Shown: piece after piece, positions 1,570 to 46,398 of the stretch | Layout of the letters: the number at the start of each line of letters is the position of its first letter | How positions within the stretch are numbered: the stretch's first letter is position 1 | Assembly: GCA_021738505.1 (NCBI GenBank) | Contig: JAIPBW010000004.1 | Span: 8,000-71,999 of the forward strand | Reading direction: 5' to 3' | Length of the DNA stretch: 64,000 nt | Origin: Bacteroidales bacterium | GTDB taxonomy: Bacteria; Bacteroidota; Bacteroidia; Bacteroidales; PWNQ01 | The notes under the pieces: generated by a model | What the model saw: the letters and a program-made list of their open reading frames with translations, nothing else | Databases searched by the model: none | Told to the model about the DNA's origin: nothing | Made by a program: the position numbers and the translations under genes

Positions 1570-3105
1570 ATGGATGATAAAAAAACAAAACAAATGAAGA
1601 TTTTACCAGTTGATAAAATCAGGGAAGCCGATGCGTATACAATACAAAACGAACCAATTGCATCAATCGATTTAATGGAGCGTGCCGGAACAAATTGCTA
1701 TGAATGGATCAAAGAACGATTAGCCTCAGATCAGAAGGTTATGGTTTTTGCAGGGATTGGAAATAATGCAGGTGACGGACTGGTTATTGCACGTCTTTTA
1801 GCAGCTGATGATATTGAGGTGGAAGTTGTTCATCTTCAGTTTAGCGAGAAGTTTTCCGGGGATTTTTCAACGAATATGGATCGTTTGAAAAAACAAAACA
1901 AGGCAAAGATAATGCCGGTAAAGTCGGAAGAGCAAATCCCGGAACCATCTGCAGATGATGTTGTTATAGATGCTGTTTTTGGTTCGGGTTTAGCTCGCCC
2001 AGTAAAAGGATTGCCGGGTAAAGCTATAGAAGTTATAAACCAATCGGAAGCAGTAGTTGTTGCTATTGATATTCCCTCCGGCCTTTATGCCGATCATCCT
2101 GCAGATGAAAAAGAAGGAACCATAGTTCATGCAGATTATACCCTGAGCCTGCAGATGCCGAAACTGTCTATGATGATGCCGGAGACCGGAGACTTTGTTG
2201 GGGAATTGTCAGTGATCCCCATAGGATTGCATCCTGATTTTTTAGAACAGGCAGATACCCCTTATCATGTTATCACGGATGAATTTAAAACGTTGTTACC
2301 CCGGCGAACAAAGTTTGCTCATAAAGGAAACTATGGTCATGCTTTGATAATAGCAGGTAGCTATGGAAAAATGGGTGCTTGCGTATTGAGCTCCAAATCC
2401 TGTTTGCGAACTGGAGCAGGTTTGGTAACGGCTCATGTGCCCAAAAAAGGCTATGACATCATTCAGACAGCCGTTCCCGAATGTATGACTGTTATTGATC
2501 CGGATCAGGAAATTCAGGCTAATCTCCCGGATTTGAAGCCATACAATGTAATTGCTGCCGGCCCCGGAATTGGTCAGTCTGCGCAGACGCAAAAGTTAAT
2601 AAAAGTACTTATCCAGGAATCTCAGGCTCCACTGGTTTTTGATGCTGATGCAATAAATATACTTGCAGAAAATAAAACCTGGTTGTCATTTTTACCTTCC
2701 AATTCAATTTTAACTCCTCATCCCGGTGAATTTGACCGTCTGGCAGGAAAGTCTAAAAATGGTTTTGAACGGATTGAAAAGGCCAGAGAACTTGCGAAGA
2801 AATATCACATCTACCTGGTATTAAAAGGTGCGAATACTGCTGTTTGCACGCCACGTGGTTATGTGTGGTTCAACAGCACAGGCAACCCGGGAATGGCTAC
2901 TGCCGGTAGTGGTGATGTGCTCACCGGAATTATTGCCGGTATGCTGGCCCAGCACATGAAACCTTTTGATGCTGCCTGCCTTGGTGTATTTATTCATGGA
3001 TTAGCAGGAGATGAGGCTGCCGATGAAATTGGTGAAGAAGCGCTGATAGCGTCCGATATTACAGACTTTTTGCCGGAAGCTTATGACTTGCTGGCAGATG
3101 AGTAA
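1570..3105 (+). CDS. nnr: bifunctional NAD(P)H-hydrate epimerase / ADP-dependent NAD(P)H-hydrate dehydratase
   Basis: 511 aa. An N-terminal YjeF_N-type part (GIGNNAGDGLV) is fused to a C-terminal carbohydrate-kinase-like part (GPGIG, GSGDVLTG). Confidence 0.85.
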   Translation: MDDKKTKQMKILPVDKIREADAYTIQNEPIASIDLMERAGTNCYEWIKERLASDQKVMVFAGIGNNAGDGLVIARLLAADDIEVEVVHLQFSEKFSGDFSTNMDRLKKQNKAKIMPVKSEEQIPEPSADDVVIDAVFGSGLARPVKGLPGKAIEVINQSEAVVVAIDIPSGLYADHPADEKEGTIVHADYTLSLQMPKLSMMMPETGDFVGELSVIPIGLHPDFLEQADTPYHVITDEFKTLLPRRTKFAHKGNYGHALIIAGSYGKMGACVLSSKSCLRTGAGLVTAHVPKKGYDIIQTAVPECMTVIDPDQEIQANLPDLKPYNVIAAGPGIGQSAQTQKLIKVLIQESQAPLVFDADAINILAENKTWLSFLPSNSILTPHPGEFDRLAGKSKNGFERIEKARELAKKYHIYLVLKGANTAVCTPRGYVWFNSTGNPGMATAGSGDVLTGIIAGMLAQHMKPFDAACLGVFIHGLAGDEAADEIGEEALIASDITDFLPEAYDLLADE

Positions 3106-3133
3106 GTTACCGAATGTTAGATTTATCGCGGAT

Positions 3134-3184: not shown

Positions 3185-4099
3185 ATGTTTAAACCGAATA
3201 TTCCGAAATGGGTACAAAAACATAATTTTGACTATAAAAGTTATGATGATGTACCTGCTGAAGTATTTGATCGCATCAGGGATGGATTGAATAAAAAGAA
3301 GTCAGACCGCCCGGATGTGAGTATTGTTGCCATAACATACAACGAAAGCGTAAATGTTCTCCGGTTATTGTCATCATTAGCTGATATCCGCTCCGGGTTG
3401 GAGTTGGAGGTTATTGTAGTGAACAATAATTCTACGGATGACACACAAAAGTTTTTAGACAGGGCAGGAGCTGTAAGTGTTTTTGAACAGCGGCAGGGAA
3501 TCCCCTGGGCAAGACAAGCCGGATTAGACAGAGCAAAAGGTACCTATCACCTTTGTGCCGATGGAGATACGATTTACCCACCGAAGTATGCAGATACCAT
3601 GTATAAAGCTTTACAAAAGAAAAATGTAGTTTGTGCTTATGGTATGGGCTCATTTTTACCTGATAAGACGAAAACACGGTTTCAACTGGCAGTATATGAG
3701 TTTTTTAAAGACTTAGTAATACATTTGCGTTCTATTAACCGTCCTGAACAAAGTGTTCGTTCCCAAAGCATGGGATTTCCAACAGATCTGGCAAAAAAAA
3801 TCGGTTGGAATACGGGAGTTAAACGAGGATCAGACGGTCGATTAGCCTGGGCTTTATCGAAACATGGTAAACTGGTTTTGGTAAATAGCAACGGAGCCCG
3901 TATTTGGACAACTACAGAAACATTAAACAGGGACGGCAGCTTAGGGCAGGTGATCGGTAAAAGAATTCGCCGCGAGTGGAACCGTTTGGGAGAATATTTT
4001 CAAAAACAAAAAGGAGAATATAAAGAAGTGGAAGATATTGAGAAAAACAAACGGGAAGTAGAAGAAAAACTTAAACAAGAGAAAGAAAGGAATAATTGA
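3185..4099 (+). CDS. family 2 glycosyltransferase
   Basis: 304 aa with VSIVAITYNE, NNNSTDDT and ADGDT (DxD-like), as in GT2 enzymes. It has a Lys/Glu-rich C-terminal tail. Confidence 0.7.
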   Translation: MFKPNIPKWVQKHNFDYKSYDDVPAEVFDRIRDGLNKKKSDRPDVSIVAITYNESVNVLRLLSSLADIRSGLELEVIVVNNNSTDDTQKFLDRAGAVSVFEQRQGIPWARQAGLDRAKGTYHLCADGDTIYPPKYADTMYKALQKKNVVCAYGMGSFLPDKTKTRFQLAVYEFFKDLVIHLRSINRPEQSVRSQSMGFPTDLAKKIGWNTGVKRGSDGRLAWALSKHGKLVLVNSNGARIWTTTETLNRDGSLGQVIGKRIRREWNRLGEYFQKQKGEYKEVEDIEKNKREVEEKLKQEKERNN

Positions 4100-16880: not shown

Positions 16881-17861
16881 ATGCTTTGTATTTATTCACC
16901 CGAGACAAATCCGGCGTTTAATATTGCCAGTGAAGAATATTTAATGAAAAACATTGATCAGGATGTGTTTTTGTTATATATCAATGGACCTTCGATTATA
17001 GTAGGAAAACATCAAAATACACTTTCTGAGATCAATGTAGATTACGTAAAAGAAAACAATATTGAAATCGTTCGCCGGCTTTCCGGTGGAGGAGCAGTAT
17101 TTCATGATCAGGGAAATTTGAATTTTGCGTTTATAAAGAAAGGGGAGGACACCAATCTGGTCGATTTTCAGAAGTTTACAATTCCTATTCTGGATGTTTT
17201 GCGTAAATTAGATATTAATGCAAAGTTTGAAGGAAGAAATGATTTGACCATCGAAGGCAAGAAGTTTTCCGGAAATGCAGAGCACGTATATAAAAACAAG
17301 GTGTTGCACCATGGAACATTGCTTTTTTCTTCCAAAATGGAAGACCTGGGAAAAGCCTTGAATGTTAATCCCAGAAAATTTAAAGATAAAGCAGTGAAGT
17401 CTGTCAAAAGTCGTGTAACAAACATAAAAGAACACCTGCAAAAGGATATGAGTGTGGATGAGTTTGCTGAAATGCTTATGCAGGACATTATGCAGACAGA
17501 ACCGGAGAGTAAACGTTATGAATATACTGAGGCAGACCAAGAAGCTATTCAAAGTCTGGTGGAGCAGAAATACGGTACATGGGAGTGGAACTTTGGTTAC
17601 TCGCCAAAATATAATTTTTCAAGATATACGACAACACAAGGTGGACATATCGAAGTAAACCTTGATGTGATTGACGGTGTTATTAATAATGTTAAGTTTT
17701 TTGGAGATTTTTTCAGTAGTAAAGATATCGGAGAAATTGAGGATGCACTGAAAGGCATACAGCATAATGAGGTGAAAATTCGCAAACAACTTGAGGACTT
17801 TAATATCAGCCAGTATTTTAATAAAGTGACACTTGATGAACTGGTAGGATGTTTGTTTTAA
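16881..17861 (+). CDS. lplA: lipoate--protein ligase
   Basis: 326 aa with RRLSGGGAVFHDQGNLNF and GRNDLTIEGKKFSGNA motifs of LplA-type ligases, plus the C-terminal accessory domain. Confidence 0.85.
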   Translation: MLCIYSPETNPAFNIASEEYLMKNIDQDVFLLYINGPSIIVGKHQNTLSEINVDYVKENNIEIVRRLSGGGAVFHDQGNLNFAFIKKGEDTNLVDFQKFTIPILDVLRKLDINAKFEGRNDLTIEGKKFSGNAEHVYKNKVLHHGTLLFSSKMEDLGKALNVNPRKFKDKAVKSVKSRVTNIKEHLQKDMSVDEFAEMLMQDIMQTEPESKRYEYTEADQEAIQSLVEQKYGTWEWNFGYSPKYNFSRYTTTQGGHIEVNLDVIDGVINNVKFFGDFFSSKDIGEIEDALKGIQHNEVKIRKQLEDFNISQYFNKVTLDELVGCLF

Positions 17862-17930
17862 TGGTTTTACATGTGAGGGGCCCGATAGCTCTCGGATAGC
17901 GAACAAAGAGATTATCAAACTACATATACC

Positions 17931-17966
17931 ACTTAATCAACTAATTTAACTCAATCAACTCAATAA
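17931..17966. repeat. member of GATTAAGTTGA-core intergenic repeat family (reverse orientation)
   Basis: ACTTAATCAACTAATTTAACTCAATCAACTCAATAA. Its reverse complement contains GTTGATTAAGT and GAGTTGATTGAGTT, related to the arms at 38739, 39150, 44668 and 29920. Confidence 0.5.
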
Positions 17967-18055
17967 AAAACAATAAGCCCCGAAGGAGAAATCACGGGAT
18001 AGGCCGGCAATAATGAGTTATTGACTATCGATATCAATCTTAAAATTAAAATTAT

Positions 18056-18871
18056 ATGGACTTAAATCAACTACTAAAAAGACTGTGGACAGATTACACA
18101 GAGCAGAATCCGCATGCAAAAAAAGTATATGACTTGTTTGTTTCGGAGGGTAATCAAGTTGTGGATGACCATATTGCTTTTCGTACGTTCAATGATCCCA
18201 GGGTTAATATTGATGTTTTGGCCGGAATATTCCGGAAATATGGTTATAAAGAGAAAAACTCATATGATTTTCAGGAAAAGCATCTTTTTGCAAAGCATTA
18301 TGAGCACCCCGACGGAAAGTACCCCCGCATATTTATCAGCGAGTTGATACTCGAAGAATTTAGTGATGAATTAAAACTCTTAGCAGAAAAGCAAGTCGAT
18401 CGTATTCCATCGCATATCTTACAGTCTGAAGAATTATTGTTTTCAGGTATTGCCTGGAAGCCGATACGCTACGATATTTATAATAAGTTTCTCAAAGAAT
18501 CGGAATATGCAGCCTGGCTATACAGTAACGGCTTTCGCGTGAATCATTTTGCAATCAGCATCAATGAACTTGATACTTTTGAGGACATTCATGCCGTAAA
18601 CAAATATCTGAAGGATCAGGGCTTTTTATTGAATGACTCAGGAGGAGAAGTAAAAGGTTCCCCGGAGGTACTATTGGAACAATCCAGCATCAGAGCGGGA
18701 AAACAAAAAGTGGATTTTGAAGAAGGACAGTATGAAGTGCCTACCTGCTATTACGAATTTACGAAAAGATACAAAGATCAGGATGAGAGTTTCTACTCCG
18801 GATTTATAGCCAAGTCAGCCGATAAAATTTTTGAAAGTACTGACAATTACGATCTGGAATTATATACCTAA
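18056..18871 (+). CDS. DUF1338 / 2-oxoadipate dioxygenase-decarboxylase (HglS-like) family protein
   Basis: 271 aa. The N-terminal WTDYTEQNPHAKKVYDLF...DHIAFRTF pattern is characteristic of DUF1338. Confidence 0.65.
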   Translation: MDLNQLLKRLWTDYTEQNPHAKKVYDLFVSEGNQVVDDHIAFRTFNDPRVNIDVLAGIFRKYGYKEKNSYDFQEKHLFAKHYEHPDGKYPRIFISELILEEFSDELKLLAEKQVDRIPSHILQSEELLFSGIAWKPIRYDIYNKFLKESEYAAWLYSNGFRVNHFAISINELDTFEDIHAVNKYLKDQGFLLNDSGGEVKGSPEVLLEQSSIRAGKQKVDFEEGQYEVPTCYYEFTKRYKDQDESFYSGFIAKSADKIFESTDNYDLELYT

Positions 18872-35029: not shown

Positions 35030-37399
35030 TTGTTACGCAAAATATTAAAAGATAGCAAGTTATTGCTGTTGAGCTGCTTTTTAGTTATAACAATAACCAT
35101 TCAGGCTCAAAAACCAACTCAGACCATTCGTGGGACGGTAGAAGATGCAAAAACCCATGAAACCCTGCCAGGAGCCAATATTGTGCTTGTTGACGAAAAC
35201 ATTGGCACTACAACGGATAACCAGGGAAATTTTAAGTTGGAAAACGTAGAAGTAGGACGGTACCGGTTGAAAGTTAGCTATATAGGATATGAGCCGGTCA
35301 TCTTGCCTGAGTTATTGGTTAGTTCAGGCAAGGAAAAAGTTTTAGAAATTGAAATGACACCATCCCATTCCGACCTTGAGGAAATCGTAGTCGAGGCTGA
35401 TATTCGTAAAGATCGTCCACAAAACAGCATGGCAAAAGTGAGTGCACGCACATTTTCAGTAGAAGAAGCAGGTCGCTTTGCCGGTGCTATTGATGATCCG
35501 GGGCGGATGGCCGGCAATTTTGCGGGTGTTACAACTTCTGGTGTAAACACAAATGCTATAGTCATCAGGGGAAATGCTCCCAAAGGGCTTTCATGGCGTC
35601 TTGAAGGTGTAGACATTCCGGTTCCCAGCCATTTTTCCGGAGCTACTGTTGCAGGAGGCGGAGGGCTAACCATGTTTAGTAGTCAGATGTTAGCCAATTC
35701 GGATTTTTATACAGGCGCTTTCCCGGCAGAATTCGGCAATGCAACTGCTGGTGTTTTTGATATGAAATTGCGTAACGGCAATAATCAGGAACATGAATAT
35801 GCTTTCCAAATCGGCGTGCAAGGAATAGAAGCTGCTGCAGAAGGACCTTTTAGTGAAAAAGGTTCGGGTTCTTATCTTGTAAATTACCGGTATTCGACAA
35901 TGGCTCTTGTTTTTCCTATGCTCCCTGAGGTTAGTTATGCCAACGAAATACCCATATATCAGGATTTGTCGTTTAAAATAAACCTGCCGGCAGGTAAAGC
36001 AGGAAAATTTTCTATATGGGGTATTGGTGGATTGAGTCATTCCTCAATGGAAGGCTATGATGAACCAGATAAATGGAAGTATCCTGAAAATCGCGAAGTA
36101 ATGGATTTTCATTATAATATGGGCGTCAGCGGTATTAGTCATACAAAGAAACTGTCAGATAAAACCTATATTCGTTCTACACTGGCTATGAGTGCATATG
36201 AGCAAACTTATGAAGAAAAATCAAGATTGAGTGATTTGAATCCGGAAAAACTTTTTCGGCTGCATAATACAGATATGACATCTGGAACAGCTAATCTGAC
36301 CTCGAAATTAACCATTACTCCAAATTCTAAATTTACATTAATAACTGGTGTTAATATTAGTGACAAAATGTATACATTGGACGGAAATGCACGGGATTAT
36401 TCTACAGGCGATTACGAGCAGATTCTCAATGGGAGAGGCAATAGCTGGTTATTTGAGGGGTATGTACAAGGGAAGTATTCTGTTAGTTCTGAAATTGATT
36501 TAACCGCAGGCATAAATGCATCATGGTTTGAGATAAATCATGAGAATACAATTGAGCCACGTGTTTCAGCAAGCTGGCAATTTCATCCCGATCATCAGTT
36601 GTCTTTGGGTTATGGTAACCATAGCCAAACAGAGCCATTATTTGTGTATTACGTCAGCAATGAGAATAATCCCAATGCATATCCTAATAAAAACCTTAAA
36701 CGAATGCGTGCCAATCATTATGTTTTAGCCTACGATTGGTCGATTACAAAGAACTTACGTCTAAAAATAGAACCCTATTATCAAAGACTGTACAATGTCC
36801 CGGTGGTTGATGGTACGCCTTATTCTATGCTTAATTTTCGTAGCGACTGGACATTTGATAAGGATTTAGTTAACAAAGGGACAGGCAGAAACAAAGGAAT
36901 TGATGTAACGTTGGAGCGGTTTCTTAAAAATGGCTATTATTTTATGACGACTGCTTCTGTTTACGATTCCCAATATACAGGTGGGGATGGAGTACAGCGT
37001 CGCACCAGGTATGACGGAGGGTATGTGGCCAATATTTTGGGCGGAAAAGAATGGATGGTAAATGATAAAAACTTACTAAGCGTTAACTTCAAATTTACTT
37101 TTATGGGTCCCTATTGGTACCATCCTGTGGATGAAACCGCGTCTCATAATATCCAACAAATTGTGTATGCAGATTATAAACCGTTTATATACCGGCATTC
37201 AGATTTTGAGAGTATTACAGACCTTACAGTTAATTATCGGATAAATAGTGATAATACATCTTCAATATTTTCAATAAGGATTAAAAATATTTTTGGCAAG
37301 CAATATATGGGGAAGCAATATAATCTGGAAAAACAAAAAATCGAAAATGACATATTTACAAGCCCCATACCATTTGTAAGTTATAAAATTGAGTTTTAA
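35030..37399 (+). CDS. TonB-dependent receptor with N-terminal carboxypeptidase-regulatory-like domain
   Basis: 789 aa starting at TTG (no in-frame ATG nearby). It has a signal peptide, a CarboxypepD_reg segment (IRGTVEDAKTHETLPGANIV...YRLKVSYIGY), a plug region, and a beta-barrel ending in a terminal Phe. Confidence 0.8.
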   Translation: MLRKILKDSKLLLLSCFLVITITIQAQKPTQTIRGTVEDAKTHETLPGANIVLVDENIGTTTDNQGNFKLENVEVGRYRLKVSYIGYEPVILPELLVSSGKEKVLEIEMTPSHSDLEEIVVEADIRKDRPQNSMAKVSARTFSVEEAGRFAGAIDDPGRMAGNFAGVTTSGVNTNAIVIRGNAPKGLSWRLEGVDIPVPSHFSGATVAGGGGLTMFSSQMLANSDFYTGAFPAEFGNATAGVFDMKLRNGNNQEHEYAFQIGVQGIEAAAEGPFSEKGSGSYLVNYRYSTMALVFPMLPEVSYANEIPIYQDLSFKINLPAGKAGKFSIWGIGGLSHSSMEGYDEPDKWKYPENREVMDFHYNMGVSGISHTKKLSDKTYIRSTLAMSAYEQTYEEKSRLSDLNPEKLFRLHNTDMTSGTANLTSKLTITPNSKFTLITGVNISDKMYTLDGNARDYSTGDYEQILNGRGNSWLFEGYVQGKYSVSSEIDLTAGINASWFEINHENTIEPRVSASWQFHPDHQLSLGYGNHSQTEPLFVYYVSNENNPNAYPNKNLKRMRANHYVLAYDWSITKNLRLKIEPYYQRLYNVPVVDGTPYSMLNFRSDWTFDKDLVNKGTGRNKGIDVTLERFLKNGYYFMTTASVYDSQYTGGDGVQRRTRYDGGYVANILGGKEWMVNDKNLLSVNFKFTFMGPYWYHPVDETASHNIQQIVYADYKPFIYRHSDFESITDLTVNYRINSDNTSSIFSIRIKNIFGKQYMGKQYNLEKQKIENDIFTSPIPFVSYKIEF

Positions 37400-37485
37400 T
37401 GATTAGAAATTTCTAATCATTTGCAAAAAGGTGACTAATAATGGCTGTGGAAGGGCATCAATTTTTATAAATGGTAAATTATGAA

Positions 37486-38295
37486 TTACTGTTTGCAGGC
37501 ACTAACCGTAATCGAAAAAATCCCTTTGTCTTCGTTGGTAAAATCTTTACGTTTATTTTCCGGCACGTACTTTTTTAGTATTTTCTCCGGAAGTTCAATT
37601 CGTTTTTGTTTATGTACCTTTATGGTATTAAAACCGGTCTGGCGAATGATTTCCAAATATTCCTCCATTTGTAAAGCGCCGGCTATGCAGTTGGTATACA
37701 TTTCAGCATCTTCACGCAAATTTTCCGGTAAGTCCCCTTTGATCACTACATCGGACACGCAAAAGTGTCCTTTCGGCTTCAATACGCGTTTTATTTCAGC
37801 AAAAGCTCTTGTTTTATCCGGTACAAGATTCAATACGCAATTGGATATAACTACATCAAACTGAGCAGCTTCAAAAGGCATCTTTTCAATATCTCCGGCA
37901 AGAAACCTTACATTTTTTAGCCCCAGTTTTTGACTATTCTGACGAGCCTTTGTAATCATTTCTTCAGAAAAATCGAGCCCCGTTACATGGCCTGCTTCAC
38001 CGACAACAGATCGTACCACAAAACAATCATTACCGGCGCCACAGCCCAGATCGAGCACATGTTGTCCTGTTTGGAGTCCGGCATATTCCGTTGGAACGCC
38101 GCATCCTAATCCCAGGTCGGCATCCGGCTGATAGCCCTGAAGGTTTTGATATTCATTGCCAATCATGTTAATTTCCAGATTGTCCCCACAGCAACTTGAT
38201 GGGCCGCAACAAGGTGATTGAGCCTTTTTTTCGCTTTGCCGGGCAATTTGTGAATATTTCTCTTTTACGAAATTCTTTATGCTTTGTGTACTCAT
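37486..38295 (-). CDS. arsM: arsenite S-adenosylmethionine methyltransferase
   Basis: 269 aa with SAM motif VLDLGCGAGND and the conserved ArsM cysteines in GLGCG, SNCVLNL and YTNCIAGA, plus an N-terminal CCGPSSCCG. It overlaps arsC by 4 nt. Confidence 0.85.
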   Translation of the reverse strand: MSTQSIKNFVKEKYSQIARQSEKKAQSPCCGPSSCCGDNLEINMIGNEYQNLQGYQPDADLGLGCGVPTEYAGLQTGQHVLDLGCGAGNDCFVVRSVVGEAGHVTGLDFSEEMITKARQNSQKLGLKNVRFLAGDIEKMPFEAAQFDVVISNCVLNLVPDKTRAFAEIKRVLKPKGHFCVSDVVIKGDLPENLREDAEMYTNCIAGALQMEEYLEIIRQTGFNTIKVHKQKRIELPEKILKKYVPENKRKDFTNEDKGIFSITVSACKQ

Positions 38296-38717
38296 AATTC
38301 TGGTTTTATTTTATCGATGTATAATTTATAAAAAGTCGTTTCAATTTTATCGCGAACCCGCCGGAATTCACTCCGGATAAACTCTTCAGACCCGGTAGCG
38401 TGAGATGGGTCTTCAAAGCCAATATGCATTCTGTGATTTACTTTTCCTATAAATACAGGACATTTTTCATTGGCATCATCGCAAACTGTAATCACATAAT
38501 CCCATATTTCGTCTAAATATTTATCAACCATAGAAGGGTTGTGCTTGCTGATGTCGATATCCTTTTCTTCCATTACTTCCACAGCTTTTGGGTTTACGGT
38601 ATCAGCGGGCTCCGTACCTGCCGAAGCGACCTGTAGATTGTTGTCGAAAGATTTTAAAAAGCCGTGTGCCATCTGACTGCGGCAACTGTTTCCGGTGCAA
38701 AGAATTAGTATTTTCAT
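38292..38717 (-). CDS. arsC: arsenate reductase, thioredoxin-coupled LMW-PTP type
   Basis: 141 aa with the P-loop LCTGNSCRSQMA and the downstream Cys pair in ITVCDDANEKCP, as in S. aureus/B. subtilis ArsC. Confidence 0.85.
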   Translation of the reverse strand: MKILILCTGNSCRSQMAHGFLKSFDNNLQVASAGTEPADTVNPKAVEVMEEKDIDISKHNPSMVDKYLDEIWDYVITVCDDANEKCPVFIGKVNHRMHIGFEDPSHATGSEEFIRSEFRRVRDKIETTFYKLYIDKIKPEL

Positions 38718-38738
38718 ATCTTGGTTTTTAGTGTATTA

Positions 38739-38768
38739 AGTGGATTAAGTTGACTAAGTTAATCCACT
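38739..38768. repeat. hairpin repeat (GATTAAGTTGA family) between four-helix-bundle gene and arsC
   Basis: AGTGGATTAA (38739-38748) pairs perfectly with TTAATCCACT (38759-38768) across a 10-nt loop. It contains GATTAAGTTGA at 38743-38753. Confidence 0.7.
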
Positions 38769-38771
38769 CAA

Positions 38772-39137
38772 TTACTTACTCTTTTGTTTCTTAAGGTAAA
38801 ATATATATCCATTCATTAATTTTAAACATTGCTCATAGGTATTTCTATAATTACTTAATTGATTTTCTGTGATAAATTCTTCATCTCTGGCACAAATTAA
38901 ATGCTCCAGAGTTTCGGTTAAAGATCCGCGTGCTTGTCTGCAAAACTGTATGTTTTCCTGATAATGATATCTTCCATGTCCTTCGGCAATATTAGCTGTT
39001 ATAGAGCGGCTTGAACGAAGTATCTGGTCTGCGATCCTGTATTTTTCATCGTTTGGAAATGTCTTCACAAGGTTTGATATCTCAATCCTGAAATTCCGGC
39101 ATTCTTTGTAAAGTTCCAAATCTTCAAAATTTCCCAT
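38772..39137 (-). CDS. four-helix-bundle protein (TIGR02436 / 23S rRNA intervening-sequence protein family)
   Basis: 121 aa. FEDLELYKECRNF...QILRSSRSITANIAEGHGRY...ARGSLTETLEHL matches the family hallmark (sQl.RA..SI..NIAEG ... A.GS..E). Confidence 0.85.
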   Translation of the reverse strand: MGNFEDLELYKECRNFRIEISNLVKTFPNDEKYRIADQILRSSRSITANIAEGHGRYHYQENIQFCRQARGSLTETLEHLICARDEEFITENQLSNYRNTYEQCLKLMNGYIFYLKKQKSK

Positions 39138-39149
39138 ATGCTATATTTT

Positions 39150-39228
39150 TTGGTTAAGTTGATTCGGTTGATTTTTGAAATTACTAAAATATATTCAATT
39201 ACTCAATCAACCCAATCAACTTAATCAA
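39150..39228. repeat. long hairpin repeat (GATTAAGTTGA family) filling the arsR / four-helix-bundle spacer
   Basis: TTGGTTAAGTTGATTCGGTTGATT (39150-39173) is complementary to AATCAACCCAATCAACTTAATCAA (39205-39228) at 22 of 24 positions, with a 31-nt loop. The right arm abuts the arsR stop codon (39229-39231). Confidence 0.75.
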
Positions 39229-39561
39229 TCAACACACCATATTTTCATCAATATCAATGTTTTCAAAGAAGTTTTCGGACAGGCTTTTCAGCTCTTTTAC
39301 TTTTCCGGGATTCAGACAATAGTTGGTTTTGGTTCCGGTAACGTGCCCCTGAATAAGGCCGGCATTTTTCAGTTCTTTTAGGTGCTGGTTCACTGTAGTT
39401 CGCCCCAATGGAAGTTCTTTGCTGATATCGCCCGAAATACAGGTTTTAATCTCCGCCAGATACTTCAGGATTTGTATTCGTGCAGGATGTGCCAATGCTT
39501 TGAATAAATAAGCGCACTGTTGTTCTTGTTTATCGAAAAGTTCACTTTTTGCCAGTACCAT
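39229..39561 (-). CDS. arsR: ArsR/SmtB family transcriptional regulator
   Basis: 110 aa with a winged-helix core (FKALAHPARIQILKYL...TVNQHLKELKNAGLI). Cys residues lie at positions 16, about 40 and about 83, and at the C-terminus. Confidence 0.8.
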   Translation of the reverse strand: MVLAKSELFDKQEQQCAYLFKALAHPARIQILKYLAEIKTCISGDISKELPLGRTTVNQHLKELKNAGLIQGHVTGTKTNYCLNPGKVKELKSLSENFFENIDIDENMVC

Positions 39562-39604
39562 AGCTATCAGTTTTTATATAATGTATCGTTTTACATGTCG
39601 AAAA

Positions 39605-40648
39605 TTATTCTGCAATATTTTTTCCTTGCTGTCTGTTGGCGAAAGCCACCAGTGATAACATCACCGGAACTTCAACCAATACACCTACTACGGTGACCAA
39701 TGCGGCCGGGGAGTTCAGCCCGAACAGAGTAATGCTCACAGCTACAGCTAATTCAAAGAAATTGCTGGCGCCAATCATGGTGGCAGGTGCAAGTACACGG
39801 AAAGGCAGTTTTATTTTCTTTCCAACAAACCATGCCAGAAAGAAAATAAAGTATGTTTGAATGACCAGTGGTATTGCTGCAAGCAAAATAATCAATGGAT
39901 TGCTTAGAATGTTATTTGACTGAAAAGCGAAAAGAAACACCAAAGTTACGAGCAGGGCAACGATGCTAACGGGTTTAAGTTTAGGTAGAAATTTATTTTT
40001 AAACCATTCTTTCCCTCGTGCTCTGATCATCACATGTTGGGTTATTACGCCTGCTACCAGAGGGATGACCACAAAAATGATTATGCTGGCTAATAATGTG
40101 TTATAAGGAATTGAAATATTGGTGATTCCCAGTAAAAGTCCTACAATTGGAATGAATGCCACCAGAATAATCAGATCGTTTACGGATACTTGTACCAGCG
40201 TATAGTTTGGGTCTCCGTCTGTCAGGTAAGACCATACAAACACCATTGCCGTGCAGGGCGCAGCCCCCAGAATGATGGCGCCGGCGATATATTCTTCAGC
40301 CATAGAAGGATCGATCCATGCCTGATAAATATGTGAGAAGAAAAGCCATGCGAAAAAAGCCATGGAAAATGGTTTGATCAGCCAGTTGATGATCAAAGTC
40401 ATGATTACTCCTTTGGGTTTTTTACCCACGTTTTTTATGCTGGAGAAATCAATTTGCAGCATCATAGGATAAATCATTAGCCAGATTAAAATTGCAATCG
40501 GGATATTCACCCTGGCGATCTCCAGTTCGCTGAGTGCTTCCATGCTGTCTCCGGCATAATAGCCCAGTGCAACACCGGCAATAATTCCTAAAGCAACCCA
40601 TACCGTGAGGTATCTATCGAAAAAACTCATTGCTTTCTTTTGTGCCAT
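39605..40648 (-). CDS. acr3: ACR3 family arsenite efflux transporter
   Basis: Start moved to Met 40648 ([14 protein letters not shown]). It has 10 TM helices and the conserved GAAPCTAMV motif. Confidence 0.9.
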
Positions 40649-40740
40649 TATATTTATCGTTTTCAATCCTTGACGCAAATATACGTCAAAAAAATTAACT
40701 GACGTAAACATACGTTAAATATTTTCAGGAAAACTATATA

Positions 40741-40780
40741 CTGAAGGCCTGAAAGGTTTCAAAACCTGTCAGGCCTTCAG
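40741..40780 (-). terminator. strong hairpin after the cation/proton antiporter gene (probable terminator, upstream of acr3)
   Basis: CTGAAGGCCTGA (40741-40752) pairs perfectly with TCAGGCCTTCAG (40769-40780), with further inner pairing (GGTT/AACC). The minus strand is moderately T-rich downstream. Confidence 0.6.
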
Positions 40781-40805
40781 TGGTGGTTAGCGATTTACAG
40801 CCAGT

Positions 40806-42071
40806 TTATTCCTGTGCTTCTCCTGATTTTTTAAGGGCGTATTTTGTTAAGATAGGTCCCAGGATTTCAAAAACCACACTGGTTGCTGTAATGGTTGTGA
40901 AGACGATATTTCCGATATGATCCCCCATAGTTAGCCCTGCATCATTGATCTCAGGGCCTAAACCCTGGAATCGGTTTTTTATGACAAGCGCCAGTCCAAT
41001 CGCTACTCCTGCTTGCGAAAGAATGCCAAATCCTACGTATTTACGTACTTGGGTTTCCAGTCCGCCAAGACTGGCTCCCACAAAAGCGCCTCCACCTAAT
41101 CCAAGTATCCTGGCTAGAATATAAAGTAAGCCAATAAGTCCCAAAGCCGGAACGGATTGTAAATGGAGATTGGCTCCGGCAATAGTGAAAAACAGCAAAT
41201 AGAAAAGCGGAATAATAAAACCTATTTCTTCTTCTTCAAATTCCTTTATGTCTTTTAATTTTGAAAGGTTTCCGATAATAAGGCCGAATACCATACCGGA
41301 GAGTATTTCCGATAGGTTAACTAACTCACTGATTCCCGTAACTAAAAGGACTGTTCCGAAGGACAGAGACAATAGCTCTTCTCGAAAACCCTTTATTTGA
41401 GTCAGGCCGATAAAAAGAGCAGCAGCTAAACCTCCCAGTGCAATGCTAAGGCCGATTTCACGAAAAGGCTCCAGGAAAGTTATCCATAAATTACGATCCA
41501 TTATTTCAGTACTACCGGAATTTGATATAAGAAAGATGGCTAATGGGCTTATCAGACCGAAGATTATAATGGCCAATCCGTCGTCAATTCCAACGATGGA
41601 ATATAAAGTCCGGGTTAGTTTGCCTTTTGATTTGGTTTCATCAATAACAGCAACAGTACCTGCCGGTGCACTTGCCGGGGCTAAAGCTCCAAATATTAAT
41701 GCCAGGGCCAGGTTTCCTGTGAGAATATATAAGAATAATGTTACTAATATAACAGCCAGAAATGATTCAGTAAGAACGGTAATAACAATACCACGTCCTT
41801 TACTCATTATCTCTTTAATGGTTACTTCCAGGCCAATTTTGAAAGCCACAAAGCCCAAAACCATGTGGGTTATGAACTCCATATTGCTTAAAGTTTTTTC
41901 ATCCAGAAAATTGAGTACGGAAGGACCGAGTAAAATACCGGCTACCATATAAGCAATAATATTGGGTAACCTTAGTTTTTTGGTTAACTGCGATAATACG
42001 AGGGGCATCAGGAAAATGATACCTATTATAAAAAGGATAGGAACAGAGTTGTTTTCAAACCAGTTAATCAT
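40806..42071 (-). CDS. cation:proton antiporter (Na+/H+ exchanger family)
   Basis: 421 aa with about 12 TM helices. The N-terminal PNIIAYMVAGILLGPSVLNF is typical of CPA-type exchangers. No KTN/RCK domain. Confidence 0.75.
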   Translation of the reverse strand: MINWFENNSVPILFIIGIIFLMPLVLSQLTKKLRLPNIIAYMVAGILLGPSVLNFLDEKTLSNMEFITHMVLGFVAFKIGLEVTIKEIMSKGRGIVITVLTESFLAVILVTLFLYILTGNLALALIFGALAPASAPAGTVAVIDETKSKGKLTRTLYSIVGIDDGLAIIIFGLISPLAIFLISNSGSTEIMDRNLWITFLEPFREIGLSIALGGLAAALFIGLTQIKGFREELLSLSFGTVLLVTGISELVNLSEILSGMVFGLIIGNLSKLKDIKEFEEEEIGFIIPLFYLLFFTIAGANLHLQSVPALGLIGLLYILARILGLGGGAFVGASLGGLETQVRKYVGFGILSQAGVAIGLALVIKNRFQGLGPEINDAGLTMGDHIGNIVFTTITATSVVFEILGPILTKYALKKSGEAQE

Positions 42072-44255: not shown

Positions 44256-44645
44256 TTAAGAACAGCAGCTAGAACAGCCACATGCATCCGGCAATATGTT
44301 TTCATCAGGAAGATTTTCTGCTCTCCACTGAACCAATCCGCCATCCAGATTGGCTACATGTTTAAATTTCTTAATATTAAGCAAGTTGGCTACTTTGGTT
44401 CCTCTTTCTCCAATGGAGTCCATGGTAATGAGTAATATATCCTCTGGCAAATGCTTCAAGTTGTCTATTATTTCTGTCATGGGATAATTTTTTACATTCT
44501 CCAGATTGACCCGTTCTACTTCGCATTCTTCTTTTTCACGGACATCTATAAGCATGGCCTTGTCTTCTTTTAACAAGTTAAATGCTTCAACGGCTGAAAT
44601 ATGCCGGACTCCGTCTAAATGAAATTTTTGATGATTTGGTTGCAT
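44256..44645 (-). CDS. rhodanese-like domain protein with Asp at the catalytic position and a Cys-rich C-terminal tail
   Basis: 129 aa with rhodanese-fold landmarks (MLIDVRE..E, LDGGLVQW). The active-site loop reads ITMDSIGERG (Asp where Cys is expected), and the protein ends in ACGCSSCCS. Confidence 0.75.
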   Translation of the reverse strand: MQPNHQKFHLDGVRHISAVEAFNLLKEDKAMLIDVREKEECEVERVNLENVKNYPMTEIIDNLKHLPEDILLITMDSIGERGTKVANLLNIKKFKHVANLDGGLVQWRAENLPDENILPDACGCSSCCS

Positions 44646-44667
44646 AAACTGTTGTTTGATTTTGTGG

Positions 44668-44744
44668 TTGAGCTGATTAAGTTGAATAAGTGATAAGTCT
44701 ATTAATCAGTTCTTTCAGTTATTCAATCCTCTCAATTAACTCAA
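44668..44744. repeat. solo imperfect hairpin of the GATTAAGTTGA family between thioredoxin-like and rhodanese-like genes
   Basis: Contains GATTAAGTTGA (44675-44685). Pairings are TTGAG/CTCAA (44668-72 / 44740-44), CTGATTAA/TTAATCAG (44673-80 / 44702-09) and TTGAATAA/TTATTCAA (44682-89 / 44719-26). The last two are mutually exclusive. Confidence 0.6.
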
Positions 44745-44749
44745 TAAAT

Positions 44750-44998
44750 CTAACTTTTTGCCTCGTCATTAAGCCATTTGGCTAATGTAGTTTTTACCGG
44801 AATTTTTCCCTGCGAAAATACTTTTCCATTAACTACAAGTCCTGGCGTAAGCATTACACCGTAATCACCAAACCTATTCATATCGGTTACTTTTTCAATA
44901 TTGGCTTCAATATTGTTTTCTTTCACAACTTCGTTGCATAAATTTTCAAGTTTTATGCAGTTTGGACATCCAGATCCTAATACTTTAATATCTAACAT
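44750..44998 (-). CDS. thioredoxin-fold redox-active disulfide protein 2 family
   Basis: 82 aa. MLDIKVLGSGCPNC...YGVMLTPGLVVNGKV is the canonical pattern of this family. Confidence 0.8.
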   Translation of the reverse strand: MLDIKVLGSGCPNCIKLENLCNEVVKENNIEANIEKVTDMNRFGDYGVMLTPGLVVNGKVFSQGKIPVKTTLAKWLNDEAKS

Positions 44999-46347: not shown

Positions 46348-46398
46348 TTCAAAATATTTTTATATTTCGCTAATCGACGAAATGTGTTCACAAATTTT

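What the first reader, a model, noticed from the sequence alone, without database searches (positions are those of the whole stretch)
38739..39228. Four-helix-bundle (23S rRNA IVS-type) gene inserted inside the ars operon and bracketed by related hairpin repeats
A 121-aa ORF with the NIAEG / GSL.E hallmark of the TIGR02436 (PF05635) family sits between arsR (stop 39229-39231) and arsC (start 38717). Its upstream spacer is essentially one hairpin. TTGGTTAAGTTGATTCGGTTGATT (39150-39173) pairs with AATCAACCCAATCAACTTAATCAA (39205-39228) at 22/24 positions, and the right arm ends on the base before the arsR stop. Its downstream spacer holds AGTGGATTAA-N10-TTAATCCACT (38739-38768, 10/10). The left arms of the two hairpins are direct copies of each other (TGG(A)TTAAGTTGAYT..GTTRAT). 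Gene plus flanks therefore looks like a discrete cassette of about 490 bp dropped into an otherwise canonical ars unit. This family was first noticed inside 23S rRNA intervening sequences, which are excised at long stems by RNase III. Hairpin-bracketed copies inside an mRNA operon suggest either RNA processing of the same kind or a DNA-level mobility mechanism, and I am not aware that either has been demonstrated.
Basis: partly seen in the sequence, partly recalled or inferred. Interest (0 to 1): 0.6.

Follow-up and report, generated by a model that had tools for sequence, protein, structure and literature searches.

The report
Intervening-sequence-type gene cassette inside ars operon
A small four-helix-bundle gene framed by inverted arrays of 9-base repeats has been inserted between two arsenic-resistance genes, and the same framed design recurs around this gene family in many operons of several phyla and in a true ribosomal-RNA intervening sequence, so these elements seem to colonise ordinary operons as well as rRNA.

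Summary
A PF05635/TIGR02436 gene (38772-39137, minus strand) lies between arsR and arsC. A 24-nt-arm hairpin (22/24 paired, -40 kcal/mol, z -8.6) precedes it and a 10-bp hairpin follows it. Both are built from degenerate 9-mers (GTTGATTRR and its complement).

The two hairpins are a local rearrangement of a general design. In 79% of 68 distinct relatives the gene has a tandem array of 7-9-mers upstream and the reverse-complement array downstream. Only 1.9% of 641 other genes score this way, and most exceptions were further PF05635 genes. The repeat unit differs between loci but stays complementary within each locus.

The cassettes are promoterless and co-directional with both neighbours in 46 of 54 loci. 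They split coupled gene pairs such as thyA|folA, pstB|phoU and cas10|cmr3.

At the same arsR|arsC junction, close relatives show a full cassette, a decayed ORF or only a solo hairpin. Distant relatives have a 7-32-nt spacer.

A genuine 23S rRNA intervening sequence (Azospirillum) and GxxExxY nuclease genes share the frame.

RNase III processing and the mobility mechanism are inferred, not shown. I found no published description. I rate it a new variant of a known kind, of high interest.

The parts
39605..40711 (-). ACR3 arsenite efflux gene, first gene of the host operon
   Evidence: TIGR00832 acr3, E 7e-117, 390 bits against cut-off 283
39229..39561 (-). arsR (ArsR/SmtB repressor). Its stop codon abuts the cassette.
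   Evidence: PF01022 and NF033788. Its 3' end ATTGATATTGATGAAAATATGGTGTGTTGA is conserved in L009 up to the array.
39205..39228 (-). Upstream 5' arm: C-poor array of 9-mers (TTGATTAAG TTGATTGGG TTGATT on the minus strand), starting on the base after the arsR stop
   Evidence: period 9, 2.8 copies. Homologous to the longer array at the same place in L009, L175 and L172.
39174..39204 (-). 31-nt loop of the upstream hairpin
39150..39173 (-). Upstream 3' arm: G-poor array (AATCAACCG AATCAACTT AACCAA). Specific to the window's lineage.
   Evidence: Pairs 22/24 with 39205-39228. The aligned stretch of L009 is unrelated AT-rich sequence.
39136..39242 (-). Whole upstream stem-loop, including the last arsR codons and the A and U of the 4HB AUG at its base
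   Evidence: 38-nt arms at 82% complementarity. RNA fold -40 kcal/mol, z -8.6. The hairpin persists in the 551-nt fold of the whole cassette.
38772..39137 (-). Four-helix-bundle protein gene (121 aa), the cargo of the cassette
   Evidence: PF05635 E 8e-32 and TIGR02436 E 1e-30. AlphaFold2 pLDDT 93.9 with four helices. TM-score 0.90 to 2GSC and 0.79 to DGR Avd 4DWL. dN/dS 0.11 against the L175 ortholog.
38723..38771 (-). Downstream array: a short C-poor piece (TTGAGTGGATTAA) followed by G-poor 9-mers (CTTAGTCAAC TTAATCCAC TTAATACAC). Contains the 10/10 hairpin 38739-38768.
   Evidence: It is 39-48 nt shorter than the array at this place in L009 and L010. It is partly complementary to 39201-39226 (pairs I2 and I3).
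38292..38717 (-). arsC (LMW-PTP / thioredoxin-type arsenate reductase), the host gene downstream
   Evidence: PF01451, with TIGR02691 as best NCBIfam hit. Its leader ACTTAATACACTAAAAACCAAGATATG is conserved in L009 and L010.
37486..38295 (-). arsM (arsenite methyltransferase), last gene of the host operon
   Evidence: NF008823, 324 bits against cut-off 263

Best explanation
Window 38723-39242 is one copy of an intervening-sequence (IVS)-type foldback cassette. A promoterless but protein-coding PF05635 four-helix-bundle gene is framed by arrays of degenerate short tandem repeats, here 9-mers. The array upstream is G/T-rich and C-poor. The array downstream is its reverse complement. The unit sits co-directionally in the spacer between two genes of an operon, here arsR|arsC.

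Shown:
- It is an insertion relative to related ars operons.
- The frame is specific to this gene family and is general across phyla.
- The repeat unit drifts from locus to locus while the two sides stay complementary.
- The ORF is under purifying selection.
- The arrays change by insertions and deletions of about 30-48 nt.
- The ORF can be lost, leaving the two arrays as a solo hairpin.

Inferred:
- The cassette is transcribed by read-through from the ars promoter.
- In the transcript the arms form 20-40-bp double-stranded stems. In most relatives one long stem encloses the ORF. In this window the arrays have been rearranged, so each flank folds on itself.
- These stems are the kind of substrate that RNase III cuts in the 23S rRNA versions of the element. 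Cutting would release or insulate the 4HB message and uncouple ACR3-arsR from arsC-arsM.
- Here the upstream stem also buries the 4HB start codon directly behind the arsR stop codon, which fits translational coupling.
- At the DNA level the arrays act as slippage and recombination substrates. These account for expansion, contraction and loss of the ORF between direct array copies.

How a cassette reaches a new site remains unknown.
For: Insertion and loss.
- Distant relatives have arsR-arsC spacers of 7-32 nt.
- At the same junction in close relatives: full cassette in L175/L176, frameshifted ORF in L009, gutted ORF in L172, solo hairpin in L180 and L179.
- Occupancy is reciprocal. The window's DsbD_2|ArsP junction is a clean 51-nt spacer. 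L002 (ArsP 80% identical) carries a 78%-identical 4HB cassette there, while L002's own genome has only the solo hairpin at arsR|arsC.
- 8 of 80 related ars loci carry a PF05635 gene at three different junctions, all co-directional.

Specificity of the frame.
- The score for upstream flank against reverse-complemented downstream flank reaches 30 or more in 79% of 68 4HB loci, against 1.9% of 641 other genes (p 2e-35). The non-4HB high scorers were further PF05635 genes plus one GxxExxY gene.
- Same-locus pairs have a median score of 38.5, mismatched loci 21 and shuffles 18.
- 20 of 25 G-rich-first local hairpins found in 959 kb lie next to a 4HB gene.

Dependence on the operon.
- 46 of 54 loci are co-directional with both neighbours, with short gaps.
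- The Bacteroidota -7 promoter motif is not enriched upstream: 7 of 68 loci against 8.2 expected.
- There is no terminator-like site on the operon strand.
- The cassettes split coupled gene pairs.

The IVS link.
- L190 lies inside a 23S rRNA gene (899 bits) and carries a PF05635-type ORF (tblastn 30% identity, E 2e-8) between tandem-heptamer arms of the same polarity.
- The Coxiella IVS has a 28-bp terminal stem, GACAGAT heptamers of variable copy number, and mapped RNase III cuts in the stem (PMC4990558).

Folding and the protein.
- Upstream hairpin -40 kcal/mol, z -8.6.
- In L004 a stem of about 31 bp encloses the ORF in both the minimum-energy and centroid structures.
- dN/dS is 0.11 and the fold matches Avd.
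Against: - The test for RNA-level selection was negative. In the arm alignments, G.U-compatible transitions (95 + 28) do not outnumber A.C-type mismatches (109 + 56).
- Arrays are often very unequal in length (L002 about 250 nt against 45 nt; L106 about 35 against more than 170), which is more than a stem needs.
- One locus (L186) has direct rather than inverted arrays, and about 20% of loci score low.
- The whole-cassette fold of L004 is no more stable than its shuffles (z -0.57).
- No RNA ends, no RNase III data and no expression data were available.
- The closest copies at other sites are only 75-78% identical, so no recent transposition was caught.
- Near-identical contigs showed no variation in array length.
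Confidence: 0.6

Rival explanations
1. The arrays are primarily DNA-level features. Under this reading the unit is a foldback-type mobile element whose terminal inverted repeats are made of tandem repeats. It would be moved or copied by a structure- or sequence-specific enzyme acting in trans, or by the cargo itself in the GxxExxY nuclease cassettes, or by homologous recombination between dispersed arrays. RNA pairing would be incidental. This is not exclusive of the best explanation.
For: - No excess of G.U over A.C mismatches.
- Arrays are unequal in length.
- Polarity is strict: the G-rich strand runs 5'->3' towards the ORF on both sides, 25 hairpins to 0. This property is the same on either strand, so it is independent of transcription direction.
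- The clean empty DsbD_2|ArsP site in the window shows that the arrays arrive with the cassette.
- About a third of loci have a direct array copy on both sides of the ORF, which could delete it and leave the solo hairpins seen in L180 and L179.
- A second cargo family is a PD-(D/E)XK nuclease whose CACAGAT units are conserved across phyla.
- Array k-mers co-diverge with the protein (Mantel r 0.28, 0 of 999 permutations).
Against: - No transposase, integrase or reverse transcriptase lies next to the cassettes examined.
- The 4HB fold has no known catalytic activity.
- No near-identical copies at two sites were found.
- Target-site duplications cannot be read in degenerate repeats.
- The 85% co-orientation with host genes needs an added selection argument.
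Confidence: 0.3
2. The repeat arrays are binding sites for the ring-shaped (pentameric) 4HB protein itself. One repeat would be bound per subunit, as TRAP binds triplet repeats or Avd binds DGR RNA. This would give autoregulation or packaging of the cassette RNA.
For: - The fold equals the pentameric XCC0516 and BT_0352 structures and the RNA-binding DGR Avd.
- The median arm of 40 nt equals about five units of 8-9 nt.
- Array sequence co-diverges with protein sequence.
Against: - Unit number ranges from about 3 to more than 25.
- Units share almost no k-mers between proteins of less than 60% identity, although the conserved protein surface (28 invariant residues) stays the same.
- Solo hairpins persist without the gene.
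- GxxExxY cassettes have the same frame with an unrelated protein.
- The co-divergence is equally explained by common descent.
Confidence: 0.12
3. It is an ordinary accessory gene of arsenic resistance, with chance hairpins or terminators in its spacers.
For: Related 4HB genes recur in arsenic-type operons: 8 of 80 ars loci, plus the DsbD_2|ArsP operons of L002 and L089.
Against: - The same gene family with the same frame splits pst, thyA-folA, rtcB, cas and two-component operons, and a 23S rRNA gene.
- The hairpin has z -8.6.
- No U-tract follows either hairpin.
- The gene is absent from most related ars operons.
Confidence: 0.03

Closest known systems
23S rRNA intervening sequences that carry an S23p/PF05635 ORF (Leptospira, Coxiella, Xanthomonas, Brucella; here Azospirillum lipoferum, L190)
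   Same: - The cargo protein family is the same.
- The size is similar, about 450-500 nt.
- The terminal inverted arms are built from tandem 7-9-mers with the G-rich arm at the 5' end.
- Repeat number is variable.
- The ORF tends to decay.
   Evidence: PMC4990558.
   Different: - It sits in a spacer between protein-coding genes of an mRNA operon, not in helix 25 or 45 of 23S rRNA.
- The ORF is under purifying selection here (dN/dS 0.11), whereas the Coxiella ORF is reported as unexpressed and decaying.
- In this window the arms fold locally rather than around the ORF.
- RNase III excision is shown for the rRNA elements only.
Avd, the accessory protein of diversity-generating retroelements
   Same: The four-helix-bundle fold is the same (TM-score 0.77-0.79, rmsd 1.6-1.9 A). 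The protein is of similar small size. Avd binds nucleic acid as a pentamer.
   Different: Sequence identity is only 7%. No reverse transcriptase and no template or variable repeat lies nearby; the neighbours are ars genes. Avd genes are not described as framed by inverted tandem arrays.
Integron gene cassettes
   Same: Both are promoterless single-ORF modules that carry an imperfect inverted-repeat (hairpin-forming) site. Both are inserted co-directionally, expressed by read-through, and gained and lost as units.
   Different: Here there is no integrase, attI or attC consensus, and no cassette array. The cassettes are scattered singly inside ordinary operons, and the repeats are tandem 7-9-mers on both sides.
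Short tandem intergenic repeats such as the cyanobacterial STRR heptamers and the Xanthomonas/Nostoc GGGAATC / GGGGAYT repeats (PMC4692102)
   Same: Both are tandem 7-mers in spacers between co-directional genes. The cyanobacterial 4HB cassettes use exactly such heptamers, for example GTAGGGA and AGTCAGG. PMC4692102 notes paired repeats in Xanthomonas that could form inverted repeats.
   Different: Those repeats were described as stand-alone simple repeats, with no link to an enclosed gene or to intervening sequences.
Foldback transposons of eukaryotes and bacterial MITE / REP elements
   Same: The terminal inverted repeats are themselves made of short tandem repeats, as I recall for foldback elements (from my own knowledge). 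Hairpin-forming intergenic elements exist with ORF-less solo forms.
   Different: No transposase partner is known. The repeat unit is locus-specific rather than a genome-wide consensus, and the cargo is a conserved small protein.

Membership tests
PF05635 / TIGR02436 four-helix-bundle (23S rRNA IVS protein) family | Profile match above the curated cut-off | tested here: met
   PF05635: 110 bits against cut-off 33.8. TIGR02436: 105.7 bits against cut-off 24.
PF05635 / TIGR02436 four-helix-bundle (23S rRNA IVS protein) family | Four-helix-bundle fold like XCC0516 (2GSC) and BT_0352 (2RLD) | tested here: met
   AlphaFold2 pLDDT 93.9 with helices 8-24, 29-54, 59-85 and 91-120. TM-score 0.90 to 2GSC and 0.79 to 2RLD.
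PF05635 / TIGR02436 four-helix-bundle (23S rRNA IVS protein) family | Homopentameric ring | not testable with these tools
   Only a monomer was modelled.
23S rRNA intervening sequence (IVS) | Located inside a 23S rRNA gene (helix 25 or 45) | tested here: not met
   The element lies between arsR and arsC, and Rfam finds no rRNA in 37400-40900. For contrast, L190 does lie in LSU rRNA.
23S rRNA intervening sequence (IVS) | Complementary termini that form a long stem | tested here: met
   Relatives have ORF-enclosing complementary arms with a median of 40 nt. In the window there are two local stems plus residual long-range complementarity (pairs I2 and I3).
23S rRNA intervening sequence (IVS) | Arms built from short tandem repeats of variable number | tested here: met
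   Period 9 in the window. Indels of 30-48 nt against L009 and L010. Heptamers in L190 and in Coxiella (PMC4990558).
23S rRNA intervening sequence (IVS) | Excised from the transcript by RNase III | not testable with these tools
   This needs mapping of RNA ends or an rnc mutant.
DGR accessory protein Avd | Encoded next to a DGR reverse transcriptase with template and variable repeats | tested here: not met
   All genes within about 5 kb are ars, transporter, TonB-receptor-like or oxidoreductase genes.
Integron gene cassette | attC site and a neighbouring intI/attI platform | tested here: not met
   There is no integrase among the neighbours. The flanks are tandem 9-mers, not an attC-type single imperfect palindrome.
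Intrinsic (Rho-independent) terminator | GC-rich hairpin followed by a U-tract | tested here: not met
   No terminator-like site was found on the minus strand of 37300-41000. The hairpins are AT-rich and are followed by AAAAAATATAG and TTAATACAC.

The most novel reading that the evidence does not exclude
PF05635 four-helix-bundle genes and GxxExxY (PF13366) nuclease genes may be the cargo of one widespread, so far undescribed class of selfish cassettes. The defining feature would be a frame of inverted tandem 7-9-mer arrays with the G-rich strand always pointing towards the ORF. Such cassettes would colonise any transcribed spacer: operons in Bacteroidota, Cyanobacteria, Nitrospirota-like and other lineages, and occasionally rRNA. 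The classical 23S rRNA intervening sequences would then be only the rRNA-resident minority. In that reading the cassettes would be excised from mRNAs by RNase III, making them protein-coding intervening sequences of messenger RNA. They would spread by a mechanism that uses the repeat arms, for example nuclease-triggered copying, recombination between arrays, or templated repeat addition at a break.
Probability: 0.35. Interest if true: 0.9.

Novelty: new variant of a known kind. Interest (0 to 1): 0.75.

Why it matters
The origin, spread and function of bacterial rRNA intervening sequences and their S23p ORF have been open questions since the early 1990s (PMC4990558 reviews the hypotheses). If the same element lives mostly in ordinary operons, several things follow.

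- The family is large. A single-sequence search finds 8,502 clusters at 50% identity. This supplies thousands of natural insertion, decay and loss series to study.
- The RNase III hypothesis becomes directly testable in cultivable Bacteroides, Riemerella and Nostoc.
- It may explain part of the long-known short tandem intergenic repeats, such as the cyanobacterial heptamers, as arms of these cassettes.
- It warns annotators and guilt-by-association screens. PF05635 appears in the figure-legend abbreviation list of a CRISPR discovery screen (PMC10910872). Since here it sits between cas genes as an insertion (cas10|cmr3, cas6|cas4), such neighbourhood associations may reflect insertion rather than function.
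- For operon biology, it is a candidate natural insulator or processing module placed between cistrons.

Tried and rejected
- Other paralogs in the window: tblastn found none, so within-genome flank comparison was impossible.
- Known RNA family: Rfam gave only sub-threshold miRNA-precursor-like matches to the hairpins.
- Terminator or promoter reading: there are no terminator-like sites on the operon strand and sigma-70-like hits are at chance level. The Bacteroidota -7 motif TAnnTTTG is not enriched upstream of 68 homologs.
- RNA-level selection test (G.U against A.C asymmetry): negative or uninformative.
- Strand polarity as evidence for transcription direction: rejected on logic. A C-poor arm followed by a G-poor arm reads the same on both strands.
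- Arrays as a general property of intergenic DNA in these genomes: rejected.
- 'Empty' ars spacers of Mariniphaga and Prolixibacteraceae carry other repeats, (GAATGCRTGAATG)n and (CAATTTAACAGTTT)n. These are not mutually complementary, so I did not count them as cassette remnants.
- Variation in array length among near-identical contigs: none was seen in four pairs.
- Defence-system membership: no PADLOC hit for the 4HB or the GxxExxY protein.
- Recent transposition: the closest copies at other sites are only 75-78% identical.
- Literature: six searches (one further call was rejected for a malformed term) found no description of operon-embedded cassettes. Only open-access papers and bioRxiv were searchable, so an earlier description in a subscription journal or a database comment cannot be excluded.
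Full report
**1. The observation**

On the minus strand the window carries ACR3 (40711-39605), arsR (39561-39229), a 121-aa ORF (39137-38772), arsC (38717-38292) and arsM (38295-37486). The ORF matches PF05635 (E 8e-32) and TIGR02436 (E 1e-30).

The 91-nt spacer after arsR is almost entirely one hairpin. Its arms, 39205-39228 and 39150-39173, pair at 22 of 24 positions around a 31-nt loop. The stem extends to 38-nt arms that include the last arsR codons and the A and U of the 4HB AUG. As RNA it folds at -40 kcal/mol, against -15.9 +/- 2.8 for shuffles (z -8.6). It is the longest local inverted repeat in the 64-kb window.

The 54-nt spacer before arsC holds a perfect 10-bp stem, about 14 bp when extended, at -15.6 kcal/mol (z -3.7).

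All arms are built from one degenerate 9-mer, GTTGATTRR, or its complement. Rfam recognises nothing here. Neither hairpin is followed by a U-tract.

**2. The two hairpins are a local variant of a general design**

Close homologs of the protein (75-78% identity) sit in other operons: pstB|phoU (L004) and DsbD_2|ArsP (L002). In those loci the upstream spacer is a tandem array such as (GTTAATTGA)n or (GTGAATTGA)n, and the downstream spacer is an array of the reverse complement.

I collected 80 homologous loci from metagenomes and measured 68 distinct ones.
- The local-alignment score of the 200 nt upstream against the reverse complement of the 200 nt downstream has a median of 38.5. Flanks paired across different loci give 21, and shuffles give 18.
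- The score reaches 30 or more in 79% of 4HB genes but in only 1.9% of 641 other genes from the same loci (p 2e-35).
- Apart from duplicate 4HB loci that my filter missed, the high-scoring 'other' genes included three more PF05635 genes too distant for my tblastn (L066, L068, L078; a fourth was found by eye in the L022 gap) and one PF13366/TIGR04256 GxxExxY gene.
- The repeat unit differs between loci (GTTGATTGA, GGTAATTAG, GTTGTAAAG, GTTATTGA and others, with period mostly 8-9), yet the two sides of each locus stay complementary.
- The median arm is 40 nt. The upstream arm ends about 51 nt before the ATG, and the downstream arm starts about 12 nt after the stop.
- About a third of loci also have a local hairpin on one side or a direct copy of the array on both sides. 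The window's arrangement lies within this range.

Alignment with the closest relatives (L009, L010) shows that sequence outside the arrays is conserved. The arrays differ by 30-48-nt insertions and deletions. The window's upstream 3' arm is absent from L009. The upstream hairpin is therefore a lineage-specific rearrangement.

**3. It is an insertion that can decay and be lost**

Among 80 ars loci from related genomes, ArsR relatives of 57-65% identity have arsR and arsC 7-32 nt apart with no arrays (L043, L076, L018, L020, L048, L078).

Among close ArsR relatives found by protein search, the same junction shows a graded series:
- an intact cassette in L175/L176 (ArsR 88%);
- an ORF with two single-base deletions in L009 (90%);
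- an ORF that keeps about 30 codons and then a foreign segment of about 130 bp, with the arrays retained, in L172 (88%, seen on many contigs);
- only the two arrays fused into a solo hairpin in L180/L181 (85%) and L179 (84%).

Occupancy is also reciprocal. The window's second arsenic-type operon has a clean 51-nt spacer with no arrays between DsbD_2 and ArsP. L002, whose ArsP is 80% identical, holds a cassette there. L002's own genome (GCA_046498195.1) has only the solo hairpin at arsR|arsC. The clean site suggests that the arrays arrive with the cassette.

A profile scan found PF05635 genes in 8 of the 80 ars loci at three junctions (arsR|arsC, arsC|ACR3, arsC|arsM). All are co-directional, and they belong to different subfamilies.

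**4. It lives on host transcription and encodes a real protein**

- 46 of the 54 loci where both neighbours could be called are co-directional with both, with gaps mostly under 150 nt.
- The Bacteroidota -7 promoter motif is not enriched upstream: 7 of 68 loci against 8.2 expected.
- The cassettes split functionally coupled pairs. Examples are thyA|folA, archease|rtcB, sensor kinase|LytTR regulator, proline racemase|oxidase, pstB|phoU, cas10|cmr3 and cas6|cas4.
- dN/dS between the window and its L175 ortholog is 0.11, and 28 residues are invariant among 35 homologs.
- The AlphaFold2 model (pLDDT 93.9) is a four-helix bundle. It matches XCC0516 (TM-score 0.90), BT_0352 (0.79) and the DGR protein Avd (0.77-0.79 at 7% identity).
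- The family has 8,502 clusters at 50% identity within reach of a single-sequence search.

**5. The design is shared across phyla and with a true intervening sequence**

Members only about 30% identical, carried on complete plasmids, show the same frame with heptamer or octamer units. These include Riemerella, Nostoc, Picosynechococcus, Geminocystis, Stanieria, Leptolyngbya and Aulosira. There are two exceptions. Pseudanabaena L186 has direct arrays on both sides. Calothrix L182 has no clear arrays.

L190 (Azospirillum lipoferum) lies inside a 23S rRNA gene (LSU_rRNA_bacteria, 899 bits). There a PF05635-type ORF (tblastn 30% identity to the window protein, E 2e-8) is bracketed by GGATTCAGAGGACGGATGACAGAGGACGGAGGACAG and CCGTCCTCTGTCTTCTGTCATCCGTCTTCTGAG.

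The Coxiella paper (PMC4990558) reports a 28-bp terminal stem. It also reports two or three GACAGAT heptamers upstream of the S23p ATG, varying between strains, and RNase III cuts mapped within the stem.

GxxExxY genes from three further contig sets, whose close homologs are annotated as Omnitrophica and Nitrospira MAGs, and the one in L115 carry CACAGAT(G) units upstream and ATCTGTG units downstream. The three are again co-directional, between a radical SAM gene and URO-D.

In 959 kb of sequence, all 25 compositionally skewed local hairpins have the G-rich, C-poor arm first and none the reverse. Twenty of them adjoin a 4HB gene. This polarity reads the same on both strands, so it is a property of the element and not of the transcription direction.

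**6. Mechanism**

Shown: the anatomy, the specificity of the frame, the covariation of the two sides, co-orientation with the host genes, the insertion-decay-loss series, and purifying selection on the ORF.

Inferred: read-through transcription, formation of 20-40-bp RNA duplexes, and RNase III cutting by analogy with the rRNA copies. In L004 a stem of about 31 bp encloses the ORF in both the minimum-energy and centroid structures. In the window two local hairpins persist in the 551-nt fold. RNase III cleavage of long stems is established knowledge, but it was not tested here. In the window the stem base spans the arsR stop codon and the 4HB AUG, which fits translational coupling. That too is inference.

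Against an RNA-only view:
- G.U-compatible mismatches do not exceed A.C mismatches.
- Arrays can be very unequal in length.
- The empty DsbD_2|ArsP site shows that the arrays travel with the ORF.
A DNA-level role for the arms (recombination, slippage, or recognition by a nuclease in the GxxExxY cassettes) therefore remains a strong and compatible rival. Direct array copies on both sides of the ORF give a simple route to the solo hairpins.

No transposase, integrase or reverse transcriptase accompanies the cassettes examined, and no recent transposition was caught.

**7. Comparison, novelty and verdict**

The element meets the structural criteria of a 23S intervening sequence: S23p-type ORF, terminal complementary arms, and tandem-repeat arms of variable length. 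It fails the location criterion, because it lies in an mRNA operon. It is not a DGR (no reverse transcriptase nearby), not an integron cassette and not a terminator.

Six literature searches found PF05635 described only as an uncharacterised protein of rRNA intervening sequences, as Avd-like, or as a strain-specific gene. It also appears in a figure legend of a CRISPR discovery screen. I found no account of operon-resident cassettes or of the repeat frame. Only open-access sources could be searched.

I classify it as a new variant of a known kind. It is of high interest because it recasts intervening sequences as general operon-invading cassettes and makes their biology testable.

Noticed in passing
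window 17925-17968 (+), with 17881-17900: A solo G-poor array of the same 9-mer family (CACTTAATCAAC TAATTTAAC TCAATCAAC TCAAT) lies in the 195-nt spacer between two plus-strand genes (16881-17861 and 18056-18871). It has no 4HB gene and no partner arm. Just upstream is a small GC palindrome, GCCCGATAGCTCTCGG. Similar palindromes (CCCGATAGCTATCGGG type) are embedded in the arrays of L094 and L097.
   Followed up: partly
window 44655-44750 (-): A solo hairpin of the same repeat family, with the C-poor arm first and the G-poor arm second on the minus strand (-21.9 kcal/mol, z -2.1). It lies between a thioredoxin-like gene (44750-44998) and a 129-aa ORF (44256-44645) that I read as rhodanese-like (not checked against Pfam), inside a second arsenic-type operon (DsbD_2 47100-46399, ArsP 46347-45028).
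   Followed up: partly
window 46348-46398 (-): The DsbD_2|ArsP junction is a clean 51-nt spacer without repeats. The orthologous junction in L002, L003 and L089 holds a 76-78%-identical 4HB cassette with up to about 250 nt of arrays. This is a reciprocal empty site.
   Followed up: yes
window 40740-40781: A near-perfect 42-bp palindrome (20-nt arms, 95% complementary, 2-nt loop) lies between the Na+/H+ exchanger gene and ACR3, just upstream of the ars operon. It could be an operator or a terminator and is unrelated to the 9-mer arrays.
   Followed up: no
L172 about 2985-3115 (also L173): The remnant of the 4HB ORF at arsR|arsC is interrupted after about 30 codons by a foreign segment of about 130 bp. 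This segment is itself a small foldback with ATCTGTG / CTGAT-type units and a GC mini-hairpin, and it resembles the arms of GxxExxY cassettes. It may be a nested insertion.
   Followed up: partly
L115 576-1007; L192, L198 and L202 at about 1201-1617: GxxExxY (TIGR04256 / PF13366, PD-(D/E)XK) genes have the same inverted-array frame, with CACAGAT(G) / ATCTGTG units. The units are conserved across distant hosts, run into the 3' end of the upstream radical SAM gene, and resemble the Coxiella IVS heptamer GACAGAT.
   Followed up: partly
L186 (Pseudanabaena galeata plasmid, cas6|cas4): This 4HB gene is flanked by direct rather than inverted heptamer arrays: (CTAAAAG)n of about 16 units upstream and (CCAAAAG)n downstream. 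It is an exception to the inverted design.
   Followed up: no
L185 (Nostoc edaphicum plasmid): A 4HB cassette with GTAGGGA / TCCCTAC arrays is inserted antisense between the two ribonucleotide reductase subunit genes. Its units are the G-rich heptamers discussed elsewhere as quadruplex-forming repeats (PMC4692102).
   Followed up: no
L022 2804-3163; L179 about 3300-3531: A different PF05635 subfamily (GANINEA motif) occupies arsR|arsC in L022, with its own arrays (TTGATGTGTTGATTG / CAATCAACACATC). A truncated copy follows arsC in L179. These are independent insertions into ars operons.
   Followed up: partly
L031, L033, L045, L054, L058 and L060, arsR-arsC spacers: Spacers of 106-142 nt in Mariniphaga and Prolixibacteraceae ars operons carry (GAATGCRTGAATG)n after arsR and (CAATTTAACAGTTT)n before arsC. 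These are two tandem arrays that are not complementary to each other. Their meaning is unknown.
   Followed up: no
window 39605-40711 compared with L009, L172, L175 and L180: ACR3 lies upstream of arsR in the window but downstream of arsM in the closest relatives, so the ars operon has been rearranged in this lineage.
   Followed up: no
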